DNA from: Candidatus Poribacteria bacterium | Lineage (GTDB): Bacteria > Poribacteria > WGA-4E > WGA-3G | Direction of reading: 5' to 3' | NCBI GenBank assembly: GCA_012270795.1 | Contig: JAAXHO010000056.1 | Location: 18,486 to 82,485, forward strand | DNA length: 64,000 nt | Shown here: positions 12,184-62,166 of the stretch, piece by piece | Position numbering within the stretch: position 1 is the first letter of the stretch | How the letters are laid out: each line of letters begins with the position of its first letter | The notes under the pieces: model-generated | Databases searched by the model: none | What the model was told of the DNA's origin: nothing | The model's input: the letters and a program-made list of their open reading frames with translations, nothing else | Made by a program: the position numbers and the translations under genes

Positions 12184-12721
12184 TCACACAAATAACGCTT
12201 TCACTTGACACTGAAATCCTTCAATCACATCCCCGCCATCAAGTATGTCATCCCCATGCAAAATGGTAATATCTTCAGGGGACCGATACACCTCCACAGT
12301 TTCTCTACGTGGATTTATTACCCACACCATTGCACAACCATTCATCAACCTTTTCTTCAATCGCTGCGTAAGTATCGCTTGGGGAGATGACCTCAACAGC
12401 AAGATCAGGGGCACCTTCCCAATACCCTTTCGGAATGCCTTGTTCCTCAATGGCAGCTTGACGAACAAACGCTGCATCTGGCGCACGAACGGTGTCGGGA
12501 TTCTGATAGAGCCTGAATCCAGTCCCAGCACCACAAACAGAACCTAAGTTATGCATATTTATGTGTTCTTCAAGGAAACTACCAATTTTAGCTAATAGTA
12601 CACCATGTCTAAATCCAGTCGCTGGCGTTCTGCGTATGACTCCTTTCACCAATTCATAACGATAACCGTCATCAGGCAGTTTCCACAGGTCTTCAGCAGT
12701 TATGAGTGTATGATCAACTAA
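12184..12721 (-). pseudogene. Uma2 family (PD-(D/E)XK) endonuclease, frameshifted and lacking a start codon
   Basis: YELVKG, RAPDAAFV, APDLAVEVISPSD in one frame and GCAMVWVINPRRETVEVY in another; shift near 12335. Confidence 0.8.
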
Positions 12722-12743
12722 TGATAATGCTGATCTGGATTGC

Positions 12744-12965
12744 TTATATGCTTTCACTTTCTTTTGTCTGCTTAAAATAGTCAGGTGGGAGTTCAGCAAT
12801 TTCAAGAACTCCTTGAAGTCGGGCGGTAGTTGAATCGTAGCCATAGTTGATCTGCCGCATCAATTCAAGAGCTTCCATACGTTCCTGTGGTGTCTTGGAT
12901 TTCCAATATTCCTTGTCACCAGATTTTTCAAAAAGCATAGTGATAGAAAATGCGGTCTTGTCCAT
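12744..12965 (-). CDS. Small protein of the type found upstream of nucleotidyltransferase genes
   Basis: MDKTAFSI...YWKSKTPQERMEALELMRQINYGYD..ARLQGVLEI pattern. Confidence 0.6.
   Translation of the reverse strand: MDKTAFSITMLFEKSGDKEYWKSKTPQERMEALELMRQINYGYDSTTARLQGVLEIAELPPDYFKQTKESESI
12785..12844 (-). pseudogene. 20-codon stub of a nucleotidyltransferase-like gene
   Basis: MATIQLPPDFKEFLKLLNSH resembles the N-terminus of that family; the expected YLLIGGYAV continuation is absent. Confidence 0.5.
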
Positions 12966-16191: not shown

Positions 16192-17601
16192 TCATCTTGA
16201 GTGCCAATCTCCTGTGACTTCTTCAAACTGCGCAACCGGTTCAAACGCCTCGTCGTAATCCCCACCATTATGGCTAACCTTACATGAGCGAAGCCATTCG
16301 CGCAGGGTCTCGCGGGTTTGCCCGACATACTCACGTTGTTCATTTACCAAGTTAGTCGTTTCTGCACGGTCTTTAATCATGTCAAAACACATATCTTCGC
16401 TGCCATCATTGGATAGGTTGGTCAAGCACTTATAACGGTTGTCCATCATTGCGATGGTCGGTGCGCCAAACATTGAGCCTTTTCCACTGTTGAACCGATA
16501 CGGAATCGGTGTGGGGCGTTCTGTCATGTCGCCTTCAATGGTCGGTAGCAGACTGATGCCGTCAATCGGACGCTTATCTGGCATTTCATAGTCCATGACC
16601 TCGGCGATTGTCGGGAAGTAATCCAACGTACTGCACGGCATTTCCACCACGCGCCCGGGGTCTGCATGCCCCGGCCAGTGCAATAACGCAGGTACACCCA
16701 CGCCACCATCAAACAAAGATCGTTTTCGCCCGCGCAAACCACCTGTTGATCCCCGGTTGCGTCCATCTTGACCTGTGCGGCCTTCAGGTCCATTGTCCGA
16801 ACAGAACCAGATCATGGTGTTCTGGGCTACGCCCCATGCTGCCAAAGTGTGATACAACCCTCCCACCTGATCGTCTATAGCGGTAATACAGCCGTAATAG
16901 TGTTGCTCATTTTCGCTGTATTCGGCGTACATTTTGCGATATTCCGGGCCGGCAACGACCGGCGTATGAGGGGCGTGAAACCATATCGTCGTAAAAAACG
17001 GTTCGGCATTTTCAATAGCTTGTTCAATAAATGGAATCGCGCGATCCATCAACACCCGGGAATCACATCCTGCCAGATTTTCCGTTGCCAGTTTTCCATT
17101 CTCATAATAAGGCGATGCCCAAGGGCGGTCCAAACGCTTTCCATTTCCCTGAATATCTACTGCAGGATCCCATGTAGGAACTGCATACTCCGTAGCAAAA
17201 GACGTATCGTAATCCCGCTCCCACGGCGGGGCGTAATTGCGTTTTGGATTACGATTGCGCTTGCCCGAATAATTCGGGTCCAGTGTGCCCAGATGCCATT
17301 TACCAAAATGACCGGTGGTATAACCATAGGATTTTAACATGCGTGCCAGGGTTATTTCCTGTGCCGGTAAGTGCCCACGATTCGCATGTGTTACCCCATA
17401 TCGAAAATAGTGTCGCCCGGTTAAACATGTCCCCCGCGTTGGAGAGCACACCGGACCCCCCGCATAAAATCGCGTGAACCGGATCCCATTACTCGCAAGA
17501 CGATCCAAATTCGGGGTTTTGATTATCTCATTTCCGTTAAATCCCACATCGCCATAACCCAGGTCATCACACATCATCAAGATTATATTAGGTTTACTCA
17601 T
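16192..17601 (-). CDS. Cys-type sulfatase
   Basis: PNIILMMCDDLG, CSPTRGTCLTGR, GKWHLG, SDNG. Confidence 0.95.
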   Translation of the reverse strand: MSKPNIILMMCDDLGYGDVGFNGNEIIKTPNLDRLASNGIRFTRFYAGGPVCSPTRGTCLTGRHYFRYGVTHANRGHLPAQEITLARMLKSYGYTTGHFGKWHLGTLDPNYSGKRNRNPKRNYAPPWERDYDTSFATEYAVPTWDPAVDIQGNGKRLDRPWASPYYENGKLATENLAGCDSRVLMDRAIPFIEQAIENAEPFFTTIWFHAPHTPVVAGPEYRKMYAEYSENEQHYYGCITAIDDQVGGLYHTLAAWGVAQNTMIWFCSDNGPEGRTGQDGRNRGSTGGLRGRKRSLFDGGVGVPALLHWPGHADPGRVVEMPCSTLDYFPTIAEVMDYEMPDKRPIDGISLLPTIEGDMTERPTPIPYRFNSGKGSMFGAPTIAMMDNRYKCLTNLSNDGSEDMCFDMIKDRAETTNLVNEQREYVGQTRETLREWLRSCKVSHNGGDYDEAFEPVAQFEEVTGDWHSR

Positions 17602-17723
17602 TTTTTAGCCGCCATTTCTACCCACTGTTATGTTCATCAACAGGCATTTGTAATCGTGTTTGGAATGATGGGTATAATTTAAAGGAAAACAGAACTAATG
17701 TCAAGTATTTTATATATGAAGGG

Positions 17724-18003
17724 CAGAGGCATTCAATTGTCGGATTTCGTTGTTGTTGTTGGAGGGGTTTCTAACCCCGATTTGTCAAGCTCGGCTGGAA
17801 AGGTTGATGTAGGTATCTTTTCCGTGTTTTCCGCGTCCTCCGTGCCTTCCGCGATTCTGTCTGAACCAGGATTTACAGGATTACCAGATTTCCAGGATTA
17901 CTATATCAAGGTTTTTTGATGTGCGTTGGTGTCATCTTTTGAAATAGGATCTGATGAGAAAAATCCTGAAAATCTGGAAATCCTGCAAATCCTGGTTCAG
18001 ACA
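17724..18003. mobile_element. Composite repeat: family A arm, REP, linker and family B MITE (17858-18003)
   Basis: B ends TGTCTGAACCAGGATTT...AAATCCTGGTTCAGACA with internal CAGGATT sub-repeats; same composite at 19644-19933. Confidence 0.75.
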
Positions 18004-18057
18004 AGGGACAAAACTTAAAAAAGACCTAATTCTACAAAACAGTAGTATAGTAAAAGT

Positions 18058-18205
18058 CAGAGGCATTCAATTGTCGAATTTCGCTATTGTTGGAGGGGGT
18101 TCAACCCCGAATTTTCCTTATCTTCTGTAGGAGCGACCAGAGGTCGCTCCTACCTTAACATACCTATGTTAGATTATGCGCTAAATCGACAATTGAATGC
18201 CTCTG
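18058..18205. mobile_element. MITE family A with REP-A and REP-C cargo
   Basis: 20 bp perfect TIR; perfect 10 bp target duplication TAGTAAAAGT (18048-57 and 18206-15). Confidence 0.85.
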
Positions 18206-18251: not shown

Positions 18252-19499
18252 CTATTCACTCGTTTCTGCCTCCGCAGCTAACTTTTCTGCTTCCGCAGCT
18301 AACTGTCTGATCTTTTTGAATTCTTTTTGTACAGCCTGCCTTGTCCGTTCATCAGTGTTGAGGTCATTCATCCATTTTTCAAGTACTCCAATTGCTACTT
18401 CAAAATCCTGTGTAATGGGTGAAAACGAAACACCCACATAATCTTGTGCAGCTCTATACGCAGCTAACTGTTTGACCTCTATTATCTCGTATGGTATACG
18501 TTCCTTTTTCCATTCCTCAGTGTTGTGATTCATCAACTTTTCAAATGCTTCAATTGATTTGTCAAAATCACCTATAGAAAACCGAACACCCATATCTGAA
18601 TACGTAGCACCCAGACAATGTAGTGCATTTTCAAAGGCGTCATTGCTATCCGGGTACTTTTTAATGACAGTTTGTAAGTACTTAACAGCATTTCTCCCAT
18701 ATTTTTTAGCGTCTTTTGAGAAACTACTCGGAATCATACTTGCGTAAGTGGCTCCGATTTCCAAGTGTAGATTCGGAAGTAAACCCGTCGTATTGTCAGG
18801 GTCTTTCTTTAAGACCTTTCGACTATATGGAAGAGCCTTCTCAATCTGTTCTTGCTCCAGATACGTCATTGCCAATTCGTAATTTAGCTTCACATCGTCA
18901 GGCATCATTTCGCTTATTTTAAGTGCCTTCTCAATTTCGTTCTTACTGAGATAGAAGATACCGAATTCTCGGTTTAGATCTATATCATCAGGCATCATTT
19001 CAAGAATCGGTTCTGCTTTCTCAATTTGGTGTCGTTGGACATAGAGAATTGCGATTTCACAGTTCAGTTTAACATCATCAGGCGTCTTCTTCAATTTTGC
19101 TAATTTCTCCTGAAATGCCTTCTCTTTATTCAACGTTTCTTGCATCACAGGTAAGAATTTCTCAGGTGACGCGTAACCGCTATTGTGGTTCGTAATGAGA
19201 CCACCATCCGGACTTACAAAAAGGATAGTGGGATAAAAACTAACGCCGAACTTGTTGTTTGTTTCCGCGTTGATGGGTTGTTCTTTGATGTTTGGATTAA
19301 CTTTGACTGTAATGAACTTTTCAGAAAGGGTGATAACATCTGCGTTGGTGTAGGTGTTGGCATCCAGCCGCTTACACCAGTATCACGAATCTGTATAGAA
19401 GTCCATCATGATCAGTTTACCGGTTTCGGCAGATTGTTTCATTGCCTCTTCAATAGACGTTCCCCATTTGACTTGGGCTTTTTCCGCTTCTTGTGCCAT
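18252..19499 (-). CDS. Probable selenoprotein: thioredoxin (U-x-x-C)-TPR fusion, 415 aa
   Basis: AAGGAG RBS and ATG at 19499; DFYTDS-TGA-YWCKRLD; frame stays open through the Trx fold (FYPTILFVSPDG) into TPRs; SECIS-like hairpin after the TGA. Confidence 0.85.
19346..19379 (-). promoter_or_regulatory. Putative bacterial SECIS element
   Basis: UGA-UAC-[UGGUGUA]-AGC-[GGC]-UGGAU-[GCC]-AACACC-[UACACCA]; apical loop 16 nt after UGA with G at loop position 2. Confidence 0.7.
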
Positions 19500-19643
19500 T
19501 GTGAATTCTCTCCTTATTGTAGGACTATAAATGAAAGTATCTCCTAAACGCTTTGAATAGAGACACAATCAGTAGCATTTCTGTTATTAAGTAACATAAT
19601 ACCACATTTTAGATTTATTGTCCAGAAAAAAGAAGATTAGGGT

Positions 19644-19933
19644 CAGAGGCATTCAAGTGTCACAATGCGTCATTGTTGGAGGGGTTTCTAACCCCGATTT
19701 GTCAAGCTCGGGTGGGGTTGATATAGGTATCTTTTCCGTACGCATTCCGTGCCTTCCGCGATTCTGTCTGAACCAGGATTTACAGGATTACCAGATTTCC
19801 AGGATTTTTCTCATCAAATCTTATTCCAAAAGAGAACATAAACGCGCATCAAAAGCCCTTGATGAGGTAAATCCTGGTAATCTGGTAATCCTGCAAATCC
19901 TGGTTCAGACAAAAGCAAAAACTTTACACACCC
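19644..19933. mobile_element. Second copy of the A-arm/REP/B-MITE composite
   Basis: Direct repeat of 17724-18003, ending AAAAGCAAAAACTTTACACACCC. Confidence 0.75.
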
Positions 19934-20361
19934 AAACTTCAGAGGAGTTCAATTGTCACGTATAGAAACCCAATAGATTATACCTGATATCCATTGTTCT
20001 CAAAACAGAAAACACAACAAACCCACATCACCATAAGGTATAATATAACCCATACATCTAAATAAAATCTAAACAAAGATCACCAAAATGACAGACAGAT
20101 AAATCAGAGAACACAAGCAGCTGAAAAGCCCAAAACTAAAACAAAATTACACTACAAAAAAACGAGAAAAACCCCATTTAGTTGTTTTTTTTCAAATTTC
20201 GCAAATTTATAAAACCTTCATAAAACAATACCACGACAAGATCGAAAGCACTTTTGCAAAAATTACAAAAAACGCAAAAAAAAAACAACTAAAAAAATTT
20301 CACGATCAGGACAAGGTTCACAACTATGGTAGATTATGAAATTAATTACACACTTTCACAG

Positions 20362-20386: not shown

Positions 20387-20516
20387 GGGAGGGCACTCTT
20401 ACCGAATGAAAGAATAGAATACGGACATGACAACCAATATGGTAAATTGTAAAAATGTAAACTTATTTGCAAACTTCATCATAGTTAGGGAATATTCTTT
20501 GCAATAAAGGTTAATA

Positions 20517-20737
20517 TAGGTATCTTTTCCGTGTTTTCCGCGTCCTCCGTGCCTTCCGCGATTCTGTCTGAACCAGGATTTCCAGGATTACCAGATTTTC
20601 AGGATAAGATATTGGTGCATTATGATGCTATTCAAAGTTGACATAAATCTGCGTCACAAATCCTTGATGAGATAATCCTGAAAATCAGTAAATCCTGGAA
20701 ATCCTGGTTCAGACAAAAGCAAAAACTTTACACACCC
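20517..20737. mobile_element. Family B MITE with the same left linker
   Basis: TIRs at 20565 and 20715; linker nearly identical to 17811-17857. Confidence 0.75.
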
Positions 20738-20837
20738 TAAAACAACTTTGCTTTGACATTTATTGTATGATATACTATGAGTCGTCAAGTTCAGAGAACA
20801 GTTTCAACATATATTCATGCTGACAGAACCACAAACA

Positions 20838-23441
20838 ATGAAAATATCTTTTATCGCCATTCTCCTATTATTTACAACATTTCTATCTGTAGGACATGCA
20901 ATACCGCCAGACAAAGAACTCCAACACGCGATTGAAACGGCACGTAGGTTTACCCAACTCAAACCGAGGTATACCCCAAACGAAATAACCGAATGTGCAA
21001 CCGACAGCTTTGTCACAATCGCAAAGAATTGGCGAAACCTACCCACAACCTATCGCAATGAATTGAAGCCGATTTTCCTACGTCCTGGTCTACCCGGTAG
21101 TTTCTTCGGGGATACCCAGTTATCAGAACACTTCAACACCCCGCACTTCAAGCTGCACTACACGCGCGTCGGTCCACAAGCACCACCACTTGAGGATTTT
21201 CACCCACGCAATGGGGTCCCCGATTATGTTGATCTCTGTGCGGATGCAATGGAACGCGCTTATCACGTCCAAATTGACCTGATGGGTTTCAAAAAACCAT
21301 ACACAGATTTCTGGGCAGCACAGAACGGGGGTGACCATAAAATGGATGTCTACCTGTTCACATTTCCCGCACTCGGTATCACCACCGCAGATTGGTTTGA
21401 GGGACGCGTGTTGTCTACCGCGTTAACCATTGCCCCCTATTTCATGATCAATTCCCGTATTTACGATTACGTAGGAAAAGCAGAAGGGAAACGTTACCTT
21501 GAAACAACCTGCGCGCATGAATTCCTGCACGGCATTCAGTTCGCATATAACGCCTACATGCCGACATGGTTCATGGAAGCATCCGCAACTTGGATAGAAG
21601 TCATGACCTACGATGGCGGCGTAATTGACGATGGAGACACGATCCCTGACCCTGACGAACCTAACGAAACTAATTCCTACAACTATTACATACATCAACT
21701 TCGCCGCTGGTTTCTTATTCCAGATATTTCACTGGAAAGTCGTATCGGTGATCACGAATACGGTTCGGTGATATGGGCACTCTATATGGCACAACGGTTC
21801 GGATACGATACTATTCGGCAGTTTTACACAAACACAACTGATGGCAGCTTCAGAGAGTTTGGTAACTTCTACGATGTATTCATAGACAATGGGACAACAC
21901 TTGCTGAAGCATTCAAAACTTTCACTGTATGGAACTATTTCACACATACCCGCGCCAATACAACAACCGAAATCAAGGGGTACGTCAATGCAGAGAGATT
22001 TCCACCCGTTGCTATTCATCCAAATGATGTTCACACAACCTATCCTATCAGTATAGATTTCAACTCCGAATCAATGCCAGAACACTTTGCTTGTAGGTAC
22101 ATAGTCTTCCGTCCCACTGGAATTATGCCGGAATTTGCTATCAAAATTGATGGTGCAGACCTCGGCCCCATAGATATGAGTCTGTTGACAAATGAAGATC
22201 GCGGAAATATTGAGAGAGAATTGACACGTCTCGCCAATACCGGTTTGCGGGGATGGGCTGCAAAATTCATCGTCAAGAAACGGAACGGTCTCACAGAAAT
22301 CAGGGAAGCATTCACCTATCACCGTTCGCAAGAAGCACAGATAACCTTCACAGATTTTGGCGGAATCATAGAGGAGATAATCCTCATCCTTATCAATATG
22401 CATCCCGATGTCGAGCAAGTTATTATTCCCGGTGGCACTTTTGGTGGTTCTGTCAGTTATACGGCTGGTGCACCGCCATCAGGCACACTCGCAGATGTGC
22501 AAGTATCACAAGGCAGTAGAGGTCCAATCATCAAATGGACTATGGACGACCCAACCGACATTCAGGAAGTTGCAATCGTGCGAAAACGTTACATAGCAGA
22601 AAATGAAACGGATATGCCTGAACCTTTTCAAACTGCTGATGAAGTCCGGGCCGCAGTGGATCGCAACGGAGATGGCATCCCCGAAGACGATATAACTATT
22701 GTCGGACGTGTTAACGTGACGCAAACTCAGTTTGAAGATACCACCGTTTTCCAAGATGTAGATCTGGATTTTGACGATCCAAATAACGTCCATTATTACT
22801 ATGCAGTTGTCCCCGTTAACGCCATAGGCATTATGGGTACTCCAAATATCGTACCAGATAGTATTTCACCAACTCTGACCACAGCCAACGGTGCACCGTC
22901 CTTTTTTATCACAACCCAACCGCATCGTATAGGTGAGTGGAACGTTGAAGTTCAAAGCACACATTCACTGCAGAGTGCACCACAACTCACAGTAGAAAGT
23001 CCTAAAAAAGACAGTTATACCATCATATTGACACAAGAGACCGCAACAAAATGGCGTGGTACCCTCCGAACAAACGGATTCCCACCAACTGGGACCTATC
23101 TCTATAAGATTAGTGGGATGACCCCTTCTGGCATTGCAGGTAATAAGATTTGGCAAGGACGCACCTTCAACTATGTGGCAAATAGCACACATCGAAAAGT
23201 ATTGGTTGCCCCCAATCCGATCCGTGCAGCACAAACGAACCAACACCTAACCTTCTACCCAAATGGCCTAACCGTTGAAATATATGATATAGCAGGGAAC
23301 AAAATCAAGGTAATTGATAACGCATCAGAATGGGATTGCACAAATCAACAAGGTGGAAAAGTCTGCGCTGGTTTGTATTTCTTCCGTGCTACCGATGGAA
23401 ACGGCTATCAAAGTACCGGTAAATTCTCTGTGGTGAAATAA
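20838..23441 (+). CDS. Secreted HEXXH metalloprotease (MXAN_6640-like) with a T9SS/FlgD-like C-terminal domain
   Basis: Signal peptide, CAHEFLHGIQ, WFMEASA, C-terminal APNP...VEIYDIAG..IK...W...GLYFFR. Confidence 0.8.
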   Translation: MKISFIAILLLFTTFLSVGHAIPPDKELQHAIETARRFTQLKPRYTPNEITECATDSFVTIAKNWRNLPTTYRNELKPIFLRPGLPGSFFGDTQLSEHFNTPHFKLHYTRVGPQAPPLEDFHPRNGVPDYVDLCADAMERAYHVQIDLMGFKKPYTDFWAAQNGGDHKMDVYLFTFPALGITTADWFEGRVLSTALTIAPYFMINSRIYDYVGKAEGKRYLETTCAHEFLHGIQFAYNAYMPTWFMEASATWIEVMTYDGGVIDDGDTIPDPDEPNETNSYNYYIHQLRRWFLIPDISLESRIGDHEYGSVIWALYMAQRFGYDTIRQFYTNTTDGSFREFGNFYDVFIDNGTTLAEAFKTFTVWNYFTHTRANTTTEIKGYVNAERFPPVAIHPNDVHTTYPISIDFNSESMPEHFACRYIVFRPTGIMPEFAIKIDGADLGPIDMSLLTNEDRGNIERELTRLANTGLRGWAAKFIVKKRNGLTEIREAFTYHRSQEAQITFTDFGGIIEEIILILINMHPDVEQVIIPGGTFGGSVSYTAGAPPSGTLADVQVSQGSRGPIIKWTMDDPTDIQEVAIVRKRYIAENETDMPEPFQTADEVRAAVDRNGDGIPEDDITIVGRVNVTQTQFEDTTVFQDVDLDFDDPNNVHYYYAVVPVNAIGIMGTPNIVPDSISPTLTTANGAPSFFITTQPHRIGEWNVEVQSTHSLQSAPQLTVESPKKDSYTIILTQETATKWRGTLRTNGFPPTGTYLYKISGMTPSGIAGNKIWQGRTFNYVANSTHRKVLVAPNPIRAAQTNQHLTFYPNGLTVEIYDIAGNKIKVIDNASEWDCTNQQGGKVCAGLYFFRATDGNGYQSTGKFSVVK

Positions 23442-24331
23442 TGAAAAATTGTCAGTTGTCAGTTATCAGTTGTCAGTTAAAGAAGAGTCTGATGTATATC
23501 AGGCATCTTTTACTGAAAACCAAAAACCAAACACCGAAAATCATCATATTCCTCTTACTATTTCTTGTGAGTTGCGGAGATGAAGGATTGATTGATCCGC
23601 ACGGTGAAACCACACTGCCATCTCCAGACACAACGGGAACGTTACAAGCAATTGATTTTCCGACAGATACAGGATCCGCATGGACATACATCAACATTGA
23701 CACGAACGAGGAATTCACACTTCGTGTGGGTGGCACCCGTGACATCAGCGGAACAACACACCGTCAAATGACCATTAGTGAAATAGCTCCCATAGATCCA
23801 GAAGAACTTAACCTTGATACAGTTGACCATTTGGCAGCGAATGCGTATTACTTCCGATTAGACACCGACTTTTATGATGGATTTGCATTTCCGATTTTGG
23901 CGACATACTTTAACAAAACCCCACAGGCACTGGTAGAATCCGCTTTTGATGTGTTTCTTCCAGTCCAAAATCCGGTGTTTCATCAAAAACATTTTCCACC
24001 ACGCCGGTTGTGGGATTTTCCATTAGAGGTCGGCAAAGAGTGGGTCGTTTTTGACAAAACTGCTGGAACACCAGCGACTGCCACCCGCTATGTCGCAGAA
24101 AAAGATGTTGAAATTACCGTACCAGCAGGGACTTACAGCACTTACGTTGTCTACGAAGAGATTATCTATGGTGACAGGGCGGACTCATCAATTCGCTTGA
24201 TTAGTCCGCTTGCTGTTTACTGGGTTGCACCATCGGTCGGTGTCGTCCAGTATAGATTCAGTCGCTACCGGGCTACAGATACATTTCAGACACAAACCTT
24301 TGCCCTAAAAAATGTTTATCTACCTGAATAG
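23441..24331 (+). CDS. Lipoprotein of unknown function
   Basis: Lipobox FLVSC, ITVPAGTY..W.APSVG motif; start overlaps the upstream stop. Confidence 0.75.
   Translation: MKNCQLSVISCQLKKSLMYIRHLLLKTKNQTPKIIIFLLLFLVSCGDEGLIDPHGETTLPSPDTTGTLQAIDFPTDTGSAWTYINIDTNEEFTLRVGGTRDISGTTHRQMTISEIAPIDPEELNLDTVDHLAANAYYFRLDTDFYDGFAFPILATYFNKTPQALVESAFDVFLPVQNPVFHQKHFPPRRLWDFPLEVGKEWVVFDKTAGTPATATRYVAEKDVEITVPAGTYSTYVVYEEIIYGDRADSSIRLISPLAVYWVAPSVGVVQYRFSRYRATDTFQTQTFALKNVYLPE
23449..23542. repeat. Heptamer (GTCAGTT)n inverted-arm element inside a coding 5' end
   Basis: GTCAGTT GTCAGTT ATCAGTT GTCAGTT AA with a degenerate right arm; relatives at 24330-24413 and 24603-24636. Confidence 0.65.
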
Positions 24332-55400: not shown

Positions 55401-55933
55401 GCAAACAGGATGTACCAATGCAAATCACAGAATTGAATCCCGATAGTGCCGACCTACACTATCGCGGTTTTTCAAAAATGTACCGTCCAACCCCACATGC
55501 ACCACACCTATTTGACTACCAAAAGGTTATAAAAGAAAGACAGTGGCGCGATCTTGAAGGATTTTACACACGGTATGGTGATGTCAATCCGTTATTGCAA
55601 GCAGTTGACGACATGTATGTCATCCTCAATGCTGGAGATGAAATCACGGTTGGGTTTGACGCATCACGATTGCCTGAACTTAAACCGGGTTGGACTCGGG
55701 ACTTCATCCTCTACAGCGATGGGTGGGACAAAGATGGAGATATTAACACGCTAACATCACAAACAGTTGAACCGTTGCCTTTCCACGGCATGTCTGCATA
55801 TCCATATCCAAAGACTGAACAGTATCCGAATGACAAAAAACATCAACAATATCAACTAAAATACAACACACGCCGCGTGAAACATCACCTCCCACCTTTG
55901 TCAACAGGCAAGAACAGTTTAAATCCATACTGA
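52409..55933 (+). CDS. TPR + FG-GAP/VCBS + ASPIC/UnbV (CRTAC1-like) secreted protein
   Basis: N-terminal TPRs, repeated DYDNDGDxD, QILKGSCPFLY. Confidence 0.88.
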   Translation: MFSRLFQPNKLLYLLISSVISFTVLTATGQDIDTDKTIREAIRHQNLGLAYLEESQPTKALTEFTELVDLLPDEAIGYGNIAVAHMRLQQAETAEEWVKRGLDAAPMDSQLHFILSEIYLLKGQTEQAVEAMKEAVRLSPDNLEFRYKLVRHFLGQRNNTDAQRQAVQHLQELYSRSPVNIVILLKLAQALLGQGQLQAAEKHCQELTILLGDTDPEKLVYLTQGIDAIKQNDLNIASRNIRIFENLHRASPRYQQGIGELVTDILGHPIEAFRPGFKARLNAKHTPPIAVEFIDSTEQLGLTDGRNTSTDNITVSLLDYNNDGNIDIFTTTGLLLEQVDGKYTPVKSFQEKAKQFFTIPHTVAFADLDKNGTQDFVVQTQNGITYLRTDSNQQWVTVSLIQHEQPTDDISFMLPIDYDHDGDLDLFSGQSGKSMYRNNGDGTFLNVTDQTFVLTKEDTQYQQPHKDAIAADFDDDGDIDILAINSRTGCTLYDNLRQGKLRAMMTETGIYQRIPYFAVASADYDNDSDIDLIFATEVGIDLFRNRGDGTFLPDTRSSAQLESRGYDSSTILKSLDYDNDGFLDIMIINKQGLYLFRNDGTGRFTETSAIIKTEAQMKNGTAGAVADYDNDGDLDLIYTNNNGQLHALQNNGGNQNNWIQIQLEGITTGNNKVNRNGIGSKLEVKVSDLYQLQYLSQQVAHFGLGQHASADVVRVVWTNGVPQNVIEPKAKQRIQEKQILKGSCPFLYVYDGEKYQFVTDLLWRAPLGLITSMGFVAPDETRDFIKISASQMKPKDGRYSIQITEELWETAYFDMVKLIAVDHPTNTDIFVNEQYTPPPFADFKIYGVAEKRYPQSASDHHGNDISDALQKVDYQYAVEHAPGPCQGIVEQHAIILDLGDIPDKAPVTLYLNGWIFPTDTSINVALSQNPAINPQFPSVSVKDKADKWKTVIDMIGIPAGKNKTITIDLTDRFLSDHRHVRIETDMQIYWDAAFFTVGKQDVPMQITELNPDSADLHYRGFSKMYRPTPHAPHLFDYQKVIKERQWRDLEGFYTRYGDVNPLLQAVDDMYVILNAGDEITVGFDASRLPELKPGWTRDFILYSDGWDKDGDINTLTSQTVEPLPFHGMSAYPYPKTEQYPNDKKHQQYQLKYNTRRVKHHLPPLSTGKNSLNPY

Positions 55934-61988: not shown

Positions 61989-62166
61989 CAGGGTGTGTAA
62001 AGTTTTTGCTTATGTCTGAACCAGGATTTGCAGGATTATCAGATTTTCAGGATGATGAGTTTGAGGTATAGCGCACCATTCATAAGTTGGCATAAGTCTG
62101 TGTCATAAAAACTATTGATGAGGTAATCTTGGTAATCTGATAATCCTGCAAATCCTGGTTCAGACA
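61989..62166. mobile_element. Family B MITE
   Basis: CAGGGTGTGTAAAGTTTTTGC...TGTCTGAACCAGG...CCTGGTTCAGACA. Confidence 0.75.

What the first reader, a model, noticed from the sequence alone, without database searches (positions are those of the whole stretch)
18252..19499. Hidden selenoprotein: thioredoxin (U-Y-W-C)-TPR fusion with a SECIS hairpin
Seen: ORFs 19383-19568 and 18252-19148 are in the same frame, separated only by one TGA (19385-19383). That TGA sits where the N-terminal Cys of a thioredoxin CxxC belongs (DFYTDS-U-YWCKRLD). The frame continues through a complete Trx fold into TPR repeats. Immediately after the TGA is a hairpin with a 7 bp lower stem, 3 bp upper stem and UGGAU loop 16 nt from the UGA, which fits the bacterial SECIS model. 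Inference: a 415 aa cytoplasmic Sec-oxidoreductase whose TPRs target client proteins, missed by standard gene callers.
Basis: partly seen in the sequence, partly recalled or inferred. Interest (0 to 1): 0.82.

Follow-up and report, generated by a model that had tools for sequence, protein, structure and literature searches.

The report
Unannotated thioredoxin-TPR selenoprotein gene in Poribacteria
This is very probably a real selenocysteine-containing redox protein (a thioredoxin-like domain fused to TPR repeats) that gene callers cut in two at its UGA codon in every sponge-symbiont (Poribacteria) genome examined; the mechanism is canonical, so it is a solid but unsurprising new selenoprotein.

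Summary
A minus-strand gene (ATG 19499, TAG 18252) has one in-frame TGA at 19385-19383 (codon 39), at the first-Cys position of a thioredoxin CxxC (U-Y-W-C), followed by TPR repeats (415 aa).

Evidence for Sec:
- All 33 related Candidatus Poribacteria loci that reach this site, and two metagenome loci, carry TGA there. None has TAA, TAG or Cys, down to 46% identity.
- dN/dS is about 0.17 on both sides of the codon.
- The next 13 nt, CGGC-UGGAU-GCCG, are nearly invariant even at synonymous sites. They fit the published bacterial SECIS model, with the loop 16 nt from the UGA.
- Homologues from other lineages read DFYTDW-C-GW-C-KRLD, giving a Sec/Cys pair.
- TGA is an ordinary stop elsewhere in the window.
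- Published tables list SelA, SelB and SelD in Poribacteria.

- Only the apical hairpin is conserved, not the 7-bp lower stem.
- Most family members have a signal peptide. This copy belongs to a paralogue clade that lost it and gained a C-terminal extension.
- One low-coverage contig has TGG (Trp).

Database entries for the family are truncated fragments. Verdict: genuine, canonical mechanism, new member of the UxxC thioredoxin-fold selenoproteins. Sec insertion itself is inferred.

The parts
18252..19499 (-). Complete coding sequence of the selenoprotein: 415 codons including UGA-39, plus the TAG stop at 18254-18252.
   Evidence: Searches show one frame with a single internal TGA. tblastn matches run through residues 1-415 in related loci. 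dN/dS is 0.175 upstream and 0.164 downstream of the UGA.
19383..19385 (-). In-frame UGA, proposed Sec codon 39. It is the first position of the U-Y-W-C redox motif; the partner Cys codon TGT lies at 19376-19374.
   Evidence: TGA in 34/34 sequences. It aligns to the first Cys of CGPC in PDB 2kuc and to the first Cys of CGWC in distant homologues. No read variant in four runs.
19358..19370 (-). Apical SECIS hairpin CGGC-UGGAU-GCC(A). The family consensus is a 4-bp CGGC/GCCG stem; this copy has A at 19358, leaving 3 bp plus a C.A mismatch.
   Evidence: Synonymous sites are frozen: CGG 34/34, CUG 34/34, GAU 32/34, GCC 33/34. It is the only helix of the shared hairpin that RNAalifold keeps. Pair probability exceeds 0.59 in 27/34 sequences. 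The G allele at 19358 is the majority in read data.
19346..19379 (-).
   Evidence: Minimum free energy is -11.9 kcal/mol for the 51 nt from the UGA. Across the family the lower stem is 82% paired in this register and 81% in an alternative register, with no covariation.
19137..19487 (-). Thioredoxin-fold domain, residues about 5-121, of the Thioredoxin_7 / Thioredoxin_2 / DsbD-gamma-like type. It includes the YPT cis-proline motif.
   Evidence: Pfam. PDB hits 2kuc, TXNDC12 and the DsbD C-terminal domain. 797 homologues at E <= 1e-3.
18480..19097 (-). TPR-like helical repeat region, residues about 135-340. It includes three 90-nt (30-aa) MPDDVKLN...EKAL repeats.
   Evidence: Pfam TPR_17, TPR_19, TPR_2, TPR_1 and others. 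Direct repeats D4 have 90-nt spacing. The AlphaFold model of homologue P0014 has pLDDT above 90 in this region, and Foldseek matches TPR superhelices.
18255..18479 (-). Clade-specific C-terminal extension of about 75 aa, with an internal 165-nt duplication.
   Evidence: In alignment A1 it is present only in the window copy, P0004 and P0013. Repeat D5.
19508..19515 (-). Shine-Dalgarno-like AAGGAGAG, 8 nt upstream of the ATG.
   Evidence: Read directly from the sequence. The same position, translated as 'IRRE(L/F)', precedes the start in the homologous loci.
19596..19624 (-). Sigma-70-like promoter candidate: TGGACA, 17-nt spacer, TATTAT with an upstream TG.
   Evidence: 10 of 12 matches. This is a consensus match only.

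Best explanation
The gene encodes one 415-residue selenoprotein. During translation the UGA at codon 39 is read as selenocysteine. The proposed route is that the elongation factor SelB, carrying Sec-tRNA(Sec), binds the small hairpin CGGC-UGGAU-GCCG. That hairpin lies in the coding sequence 12 nt after the UGA, so its loop starts 16 nt after it. SelB then delivers Sec to the ribosome.

The product is a thioredoxin-fold thiol-disulfide oxidoreductase of the Thioredoxin_7 / DsbD-gamma-like type. Its attacking residue in the U-x-x-C motif is Sec instead of Cys. It is fused to a TPR superhelix that most likely docks a partner or substrate protein.

In most Poribacteria the protein has a signal peptide and would act in the periplasm. 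The window copy belongs to a paralogue clade that lost the signal peptide just after the start codon and gained a C-terminal extension, so it would act in the cytoplasm.

Shown here: the conserved UGA, purifying selection on both sides, nucleotide-level constraint on the hairpin, Cys homologues, the domain identities and the mis-annotation.
Inferred: Sec insertion itself, SelB binding, the direction of redox chemistry, the compartment and the role of the TPR repeats.
For: 1. TGA sits at the same codon in 34/34 sequences (window plus 33 loci; protein identity down to 46%), never TAA or TAG. Two metagenome loci agree.
2. Mean dN/dS is 0.175 for the 27 codons before the UGA and 0.164 for the 62 codons after it, in the same frame.
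3. The codons for R-L-D-A after the motif are fixed as CGG, CUG, GAU and GCC (34/34, 34/34, 32/34, 33/34). Other conserved 4- or 6-fold degenerate codons in the same alignment have 0.44-1.97 bits of codon entropy. R, L and A are the three lowest of 21 such columns, about 1 in 1330 if ranks were random.
4. The hairpin meets the published bacterial SECIS constraints quoted in PMC13188914. The loop is 5 nt, G is in the second position and is followed by G, the upper stem is 4 bp in the family, the spacing is 16 nt, and the minimum free energy is -10.4 to -19.9 kcal/mol.
5. Cys homologues read DFYTDW-C-GW-C-KRLD. Many have a signal peptide and a TPR-like tail. PDB 2kuc aligns its CGPC to U-YW-C.
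6. TGA ends 7 of 38 long ORFs in the window, so the codon is not reassigned.
7. Poribacteria bin70, bin44 and WGA-3G are listed with SelA, SelB and SelD (Slaby 2017, PMC5649159, Table S4). Sec-containing group 4 hydrogenases are reported from Poribacteria (PMC13582414).
8. No variant occurs at the TGA or in the hairpin in four runs. A metatranscriptome contig spans 18663-19589 across the UGA.
9. Database proteins of this family are fragments. 57 of the 58 family hits are 231-315 aa tails; the exception is the full-length Trp variant P0014. Seven further entries are 74-78 aa heads ending exactly at the UGA.
Against: - No selA, selB, selC or selD was seen in the window or in the flanks of the loci. 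Sec machinery in this particular genome is therefore not shown; it rests on literature for the phylum.
- No Rfam family matched.
- The hairpin shows no compensatory changes because it is invariant, and the lower stem is ambiguous.
- The window's own copy has a weakened 3-bp apical stem (A at 19358), with pair probability 0.6.
- One homologue (P0014 / L036, a contig labelled 5x) has TGG (Trp) at the site while keeping the hairpin.
- There is no protein-level evidence of selenium.
Confidence: 0.85

Rival explanations
1. The UGA is a true stop. Only the TPR part is made as a functional protein, from an internal start such as GTG 19148. The upstream 38 codons would be a leader peptide or a remnant of a decayed thioredoxin domain.
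For: This is how all gene callers read the locus. The TPR part alone folds confidently in the model of a homologue.
Against: The 78 codons between the UGA and the first candidate internal start encode most of a thioredoxin fold. They are under purifying selection (dN/dS 0.164). A stop within a domain would not stay at one codon as TGA, and only TGA, across 34 genomes. The called starts differ between genomes.
Confidence: 0.04
2. The UGA is read through without selenocysteine. For example the hairpin could stimulate near-cognate insertion of Trp or Cys, giving a W-x-x-C or C-x-x-C protein.
For: A natural TGG (Trp) variant exists with the hairpin retained. Sec machinery was not found in the sequence at hand.
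Against: The codon is at the catalytic first-Cys position, and distant homologues always have Cys there, not Trp. The hairpin meets the SECIS constraints. SelA, SelB and SelD are reported in Poribacteria. The Trp variant is one contig labelled 5x, with clustered differences around the site.
Confidence: 0.07
3. The locus is a pseudogene, or the TGA is a sequencing or assembly error in place of TGT/TGC.
For: Within this window there is a single in-frame stop and nothing else to go on.
Against: 34 independent assemblies agree on TGA. Four read sets show no variant there. Selection acts on both sides of the codon.
Confidence: 0.01
4. UGA is reassigned in this lineage, to Trp or Gly as in genetic codes 4 or 25.
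For: None beyond the in-frame TGA itself.
Against: TGA terminates 7 of 38 ORFs of 200 aa or more in the window, including the 1174-aa ORF ending at 55933. No other convincing TGA-interrupted gene is present.
Confidence: 0.01

Closest known systems
UxxC thioredoxin-fold bacterial selenoproteins, in particular the catalogued 'Thiol:disulfide interchange protein' family (PF13098, UxxC; table in PMC13188914)
   Same: Both have a PF13098 / Thioredoxin_7-type domain. Sec is at the first position of the redox motif with Cys at the fourth. The SECIS hairpin lies in the coding sequence directly after the UGA, and Cys-containing homologues exist.
   Different: This protein carries a roughly 290-aa TPR tail. 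It is confined, as far as searched, to Candidatus Poribacteria, and it exists as two paralogues with and without a signal peptide. Orthology to the catalogued example (WP_011366075.1) could not be tested. Neither review mentions a TPR-fused form.
Cys-containing Trx-TPR proteins of other bacteria, unnamed 'thioredoxin family proteins' such as P0093, P0100, P0075, P0110 and P0116
   Same: They share the DFYTDW-C-GW-C-K(R/K)LD motif, the signal peptide, the YPT cis-proline motif and a TPR-like C-terminal half. They are the Cys counterparts of this family.
   Different: They have Cys instead of Sec. Their C-terminal halves are divergent. They are not functionally characterised as far as these tools show.
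CnoX (YbbN) chaperedoxin of E. coli and Caulobacter. This comparison rests on my own knowledge of the family.
   Same: The architecture is the same: an N-terminal thioredoxin domain fused to C-terminal TPR repeats. CnoX is cytoplasmic, like the window copy, and Pfam TPR_19 / TPR_20 hits occur in both. It is a plausible functional analogy, a redox-active domain plus a client-binding scaffold.
   Different: No YbbN structure appeared among PDB sequence hits at E <= 0.01. The thioredoxin domain here is of the DsbD-gamma / Thioredoxin_7 type. Most family members are exported. Sec replaces Cys or Ser at the first motif position.
NCBIfam NF041199 Trx7/PDZ domain-containing (seleno)protein and NF045694 TsoB
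   Same: They are selenoproteins built on the same Thioredoxin_7 / DsbD-like domain.
   Different: Scores are 21 and 54 bits against cut-offs of 300 and 805. The Trx7/PDZ family has CxxU and a PDZ domain. TsoB is a rhodanese/DsbD fusion.

Membership tests
Bacterial selenoprotein gene (SelB/SECIS-dependent UGA recoding) | In-frame UGA conserved among orthologues, with coding conservation on both sides | tested here: met
   TGA in 34/34 sequences. dN/dS is 0.175 upstream and 0.164 downstream.
Bacterial selenoprotein gene (SelB/SECIS-dependent UGA recoding) | Cys-containing homologues align Cys with the UGA | tested here: met
   P0074, P0093, P0100, P0071 and others read DFYTDW-C-GW-C-K. The CGPC of 2kuc aligns to the motif.
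Bacterial selenoprotein gene (SelB/SECIS-dependent UGA recoding) | bSECIS model from PMC13188914 Fig. 2: 3-9 nt apical loop, at least 4 bp upper stem, G in the first two loop positions, 16-37 nt from the UGA, minimum free energy <= -7.5 kcal/mol | tested here: met
   The loop is UGGAU, the family stem is CGGC/GCCG, the spacing is 16 nt, and the energy is -10.4 to -19.9 kcal/mol. The window's own copy has only 3 bp plus C.A in the upper stem, which is borderline. bSECISearch itself was not run.
Bacterial selenoprotein gene (SelB/SECIS-dependent UGA recoding) | selA, selB, selC (tRNA-Sec) and selD present in the same genome | not testable with these tools
   None was found in the 64-kb window or in the flanks of the loci. 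The literature lists SelA, SelB and SelD COGs in Poribacteria bin70, bin44 and WGA-3G, and Sec hydrogenases in the phylum.
Bacterial selenoprotein gene (SelB/SECIS-dependent UGA recoding) | Selenium demonstrably present in the protein (75Se labelling or mass spectrometry) | not testable with these tools
   This needs an experiment.
Thioredoxin-fold CxxC oxidoreductase (Pfam Thioredoxin_2 / Thioredoxin_7) | Domain score above the Pfam gathering threshold | tested here: met
   PF13098 scores 39.5 against 27, PF13899 38.6 against 27 and PF03190 37.5 against 27.
Thioredoxin-fold CxxC oxidoreductase (Pfam Thioredoxin_2 / Thioredoxin_7) | Active-site (C/U)xxC plus the conserved cis-proline loop | tested here: met
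   U39-Y-W-C42 is present, and F-Y-P-T-I-L-F aligns with 'ypt+lf' of 2kuc.
Thioredoxin-fold CxxC oxidoreductase (Pfam Thioredoxin_2 / Thioredoxin_7) | Thioredoxin fold confirmed by a structure model | tested here: inconclusive
   In the AlphaFold model of homologue P0014, residues 1-115 have pLDDT below 50 because the alignment has no depth there.
CnoX / YbbN chaperedoxin | Detectable sequence homology to YbbN in addition to the Trx + TPR architecture | tested here: not met
   The architecture is shared, but no YbbN chain is among the 23 PDB hits at E <= 0.01. Foldseek finds only generic TPR proteins.
NCBIfam NF041199 Trx7/PDZ (seleno)protein | Score above the curated cut-off, a CxxU motif and a PDZ domain | tested here: not met
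   21.1 bits against a cut-off of 300. The motif here is UxxC and there is no PDZ domain.
DsbD (C-terminal gamma domain) | Full-length DsbD with a membrane domain | tested here: not met
   NF001419 scores 43.5 bits against 330, and only the last roughly 117 profile positions match. The similarity is at domain level only.

The most novel reading that the evidence does not exclude
The Poribacteria Trx-TPR proteins may be a distinct, previously uncatalogued selenoprotein family that is obligately Sec-dependent across a whole candidate phylum. No Cys form was found in 36 loci. There is an exported paralogue and a cytoplasmic paralogue, and an invariant 13-nt SelB-binding hairpin is superimposed on the conserved KRLD motif. 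If the TPR repeats bind clients, this would be a selenium-dependent 'chaperedoxin' in sponge symbionts. It would also be a marker of selenium dependence in the sponge holobiont, in line with the reported enrichment of SelA and SelB in sponge symbionts.
Probability: 0.4. Interest if true: 0.55.

Novelty: new member of a known kind. Interest (0 to 1): 0.42.

Why it matters
- It corrects a systematic annotation error. Apart from one Trp variant, every public protein entry found for this family (64 entries) is a head or tail fragment. At least 34 Poribacteria MAGs carry the unrecognised full-length gene.
- It adds direct genomic evidence that Poribacteria, dominant and uncultivated sponge symbionts, use selenocysteine.
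- It supplies a compact, phylum-wide conserved SECIS (CGGC-UGGAU-GCCG, 12 nt after the UGA). This could be used to find further selenoprotein genes in these genomes.
- The pair of exported and signal-less paralogues offers a natural comparison for what a Trx-TPR fusion does in two compartments.
- The mechanism itself is the canonical bacterial one, so a selenoprotein specialist would find it expected rather than surprising.

Tried and rejected
- Rfam at gathering thresholds found only a tRNA and no SECIS family.
- ARAGORN found no tRNA-Sec in the window or in 34 loci.
- Window ORFs with SelA-, SelB- or SelD-like lengths are not Sec machinery. They are a sigma-54 activator, SecD and a Zn-dehydrogenase.
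- A scan for other TGA-interrupted genes in the window gave no second convincing candidate. The apical hairpin motif occurs only once in the window.
- The word-indexed protein search with the N-terminal domain returned only the 74-78 aa head fragments. The exhaustive HMMER search was needed to reach the Cys homologues.
- Covariation analysis gave nothing. The apical helix is invariant, and two alternative lower stems are each about 81% paired and no better than shuffles.
- The AlphaFold model of homologue P0014 resolved only the TPR half. Foldseek then gave only generic TPR matches.
- The metagenome scan added only two informative loci.
- Neighbouring genes give no functional link: sulfatase, GHMP kinase, MoxR ATPase, Uma2, and two ORFs without Pfam hits.
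- Code reassignment, pseudogene and sequencing error were considered and rejected.

Full report
**1. The observation**

On the minus strand an ATG at 19499-19497 follows a Shine-Dalgarno-like AAGGAGAG (19515-19508). The reading frame then runs to TAG at 18254-18252 with one interruption, TGA at 19385-19383, which is codon 39. The translation around it is LIMMDFYTDS-*-YWCKRLD. With Cys placed at the stop, Pfam reports Thioredoxin_2 (39.5 bits, cut-off 27), Thioredoxin_7 (38.6/27) and Thioredox_DsbH (37.5/27) for residues about 5-120. It reports a series of TPR families for residues about 135-290.

As a single sequence, however, it folds no better than shuffled controls (z = -0.82). The description is therefore accurate. 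Significance has to come from comparison with other genomes.

**2. Comparative evidence for recoding**

The protein search returned only Candidatus Poribacteria entries plus one weak, unrelated hit. With one exception all family entries are truncated: 231-315 aa tails that begin downstream of the active site. The search with the N-terminal domain later returned 74-78 aa heads that end exactly before the UGA.

A scan of one genome per species returned 34 Poribacteria loci, and tblastn aligned through the stop in them. In all 33 loci that include the N-terminus, and in the window, the codon at this position is TGA. It is never TAA, TAG or a sense codon, although the proteins diverge to 46% identity. 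Two further metagenome loci agree.

Mean pairwise dN/dS is 0.175 for the 27 codons before the UGA and 0.164 for the 62 codons after it, in one frame. Both sides are therefore translated and constrained together.

TGA terminates 7 of 38 long ORFs in the window, which excludes codon reassignment. Four public read sets show no variant at 19383-19385, while flanking codons do vary. A metatranscriptome contig covers 18663-19589 continuously across the UGA.

**3. The RNA element**

Directly after the U-x-x-C-(K/D) codons, the four codons for R-L-D-A are CGG CUG GAU GCC in 34/34, 34/34, 32/34 and 33/34 sequences. The next base is G in 33/34. In the same alignment, other conserved 4- or 6-fold degenerate codons have 0.44-1.97 bits of codon entropy. 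R, L and A are the three lowest of 21 such columns. CGG is not the usual Arg codon here; another Arg column uses AGA throughout.

This frozen stretch forms CGGC-UGGAU-GCCG. It is the only helix of the shared hairpin that RNAalifold retains. It is predicted with probability above 0.59 in 27 of 34 sequences.

The element meets the published bacterial SECIS constraints quoted in PMC13188914:
- apical loop of 3-9 nt;
- upper stem of at least 4 bp;
- G within the first two loop positions, usually followed by G or U;
- 16-37 nt between the UGA and the loop;
- minimum free energy of -7.5 kcal/mol or lower.

There is no covariation, because nothing in the helix varies. Below it, two alternative lower stems are each about 81% paired across the family and no better than shuffles.

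The window's own copy has A instead of G at 19358 (Asn for Asp), which weakens the fourth pair. In the read sets the G allele is the majority.

**4. The Sec/Cys pair and the fold**

An exhaustive HMMER search used the 94 residues after the UGA as query. It found 797 proteins at E <= 1e-3. Sampled members from other lineages read DFYTDW-C-GW-C-K(R/K)LD. Most have an N-terminal signal peptide and several have a TPR-like C-terminal half. They are the Cys counterparts expected for a genuine selenoprotein.

Among solved structures the closest are 2kuc (a putative disulphide isomerase whose CGPC aligns with U-YW-C), TXNDC12/ERp18 and the C-terminal domain of DsbD. The cis-proline motif (YPT) is present.

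An AlphaFold model of the one full-length database homologue, P0014, resolved the C-terminal half with pLDDT above 90 as a TPR superhelix. It left the thioredoxin part unresolved for lack of alignment depth. Foldseek matched only generic TPR proteins.

**5. Sec machinery**

No tRNA-Sec, selA, selB or selD lies in the window or in the flanks of the loci. This point rests on published data:
- Slaby et al. 2017 (PMC5649159) Table S4 lists SelA, SelB and SelD COGs in both Poribacteria bins (bin70, bin44) and in the single-cell genome WGA-3G.
- A 2026 survey reports Sec-containing group 4 hydrogenases from Poribacteria (PMC13582414).

The machinery is not verified for the genome this window comes from.

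**6.

Twenty-six loci begin MFNSVFYRH...LLMIAVAMPAIAQ-, a typical signal peptide. This is inferred from a charged start, a hydrophobic core and an AxA site; no predictor was run. The window and L001-L007 start at the same ribosome-binding site but lack that segment (MAQEAEKAQVKWG...). They also carry an extra C-terminal extension of about 75 aa with an internal duplication.

Single genomes hold both forms: PCPOR2a has L001 and L017, RHO2_bin_17 has L002 and L022, and SB0662_bin_35 has L003 and L013. 'Cytoplasmic' is therefore reasonable for this copy, but the family is mainly exported. The number of 30-residue MPDDVKLN...EKAL repeats varies between orthologues.

**7. The one discordant datum**

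P0014, on contig L036 (labelled '5x'), is 93.7% identical in DNA to L024. It reads GAT TCG TGG GGT TCG TGT where L024 reads GAA TGG TGA GGA TGG TGC. That puts Trp at the Sec position, with both flanking Trp codons changed to Ser and the hairpin retained. It could be a real loss-of-Sec variant or an error in a low-coverage assembly. It does not outweigh the other 34 sequences, but it is recorded as unexplained.

**8. Mechanism and function**

The most likely mechanism is canonical. SelB carrying Sec-tRNA(Sec) binds the apical hairpin and decodes UGA-39. The product is a thiol-disulfide oxidoreductase in which Sec is the exposed attacking residue of U-x-x-C. The TPR superhelix would serve as a docking surface.

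The domain type (DsbD-gamma / Thioredoxin_7) and the signal peptides point to a periplasmic reductase or isomerase role for the main clade. For the signal-less clade a CnoX-like arrangement in the cytoplasm is an analogy, not a demonstrated homology; no YbbN hit appeared. Neighbouring genes give no functional clue.

**9. Comparison with what is known, and novelty**

UxxC thioredoxin-fold selenoproteins are the commonest kind of bacterial selenoprotein. A 'thiol:disulfide interchange protein' family (PF13098, UxxC) is already catalogued. No NCBIfam model reaches its cut-off; the nearest are TsoB/DsbD at domain level and Trx7/PDZ at 21 bits against 300. Two recent reviews do not mention a TPR-fused form or Poribacteria.

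I therefore file this as a new member of a known kind. It is a real, phylum-wide, uniformly mis-annotated selenoprotein with an ordinary mechanism. Confidence that the UGA encodes Sec is about 0.85. Confidence in the specific cellular role is much lower.

Noticed in passing
window 17700-18115, 19640-19940, 20500-20740 and 62016-62163: There are four copies of a repeat element of roughly 250-400 nt. Each contains a long internal inverted repeat (arms about 45 nt, TTCTGTCTGAACCAGGATTTNCAGGATTACCAGATTT..., 87-95% complementary) and looks MITE- or REP-like. Three copies bracket the selenoprotein gene on both sides. In translation they give the recurring 'SEPGFxGLPDFQD' pseudo-ORFs.
   Followed up: partly
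L036:6001-7173 (protein P0014): This is the only full-length database homologue. It has TGG (Trp) at the Sec position and TCG (Ser) in place of both neighbouring Trp codons, while the SECIS hairpin is intact. The contig is labelled 5x coverage, so it is either a real Sec-to-Trp variant or an assembly error.
   Followed up: partly
window 19358: The window has A on the minus strand (Asn, which breaks the fourth SECIS base pair). Most depth in four public runs has G (Asp, pair restored), so the window carries a minority allele.
   Followed up: yes
window 19352-19409, runs X17 and X20: Sponge metatranscriptome contigs at 75-86x word depth match only this short conserved stretch and diverge on both sides. 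They come from a paralogue or another strain, probably the signal-peptide form, which appears well expressed.
   Followed up: no
window 20817-23441 and 23441-24331 (+): Adjacent 874-aa and 296-aa ORFs have no Pfam match at E <= 1e-5. They are divergently oriented from the selenoprotein gene.
   Followed up: no
window 16192-17601 (-) and 12305-12844 (-): A sulfatase gene lies directly downstream of the selenoprotein gene, and a Uma2-family endonuclease gene lies further on. The Uma2 COG is listed as enriched in a sponge-symbiont group that includes Poribacteria in Slaby 2017 Table S4.
   Followed up: no
window 18858-19086 (-): Three tandem 90-nt (30-aa) repeats encode MPDDVKLN...EKAL units. The copy number differs between orthologues, from 3 to 6.
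   Followed up: partly
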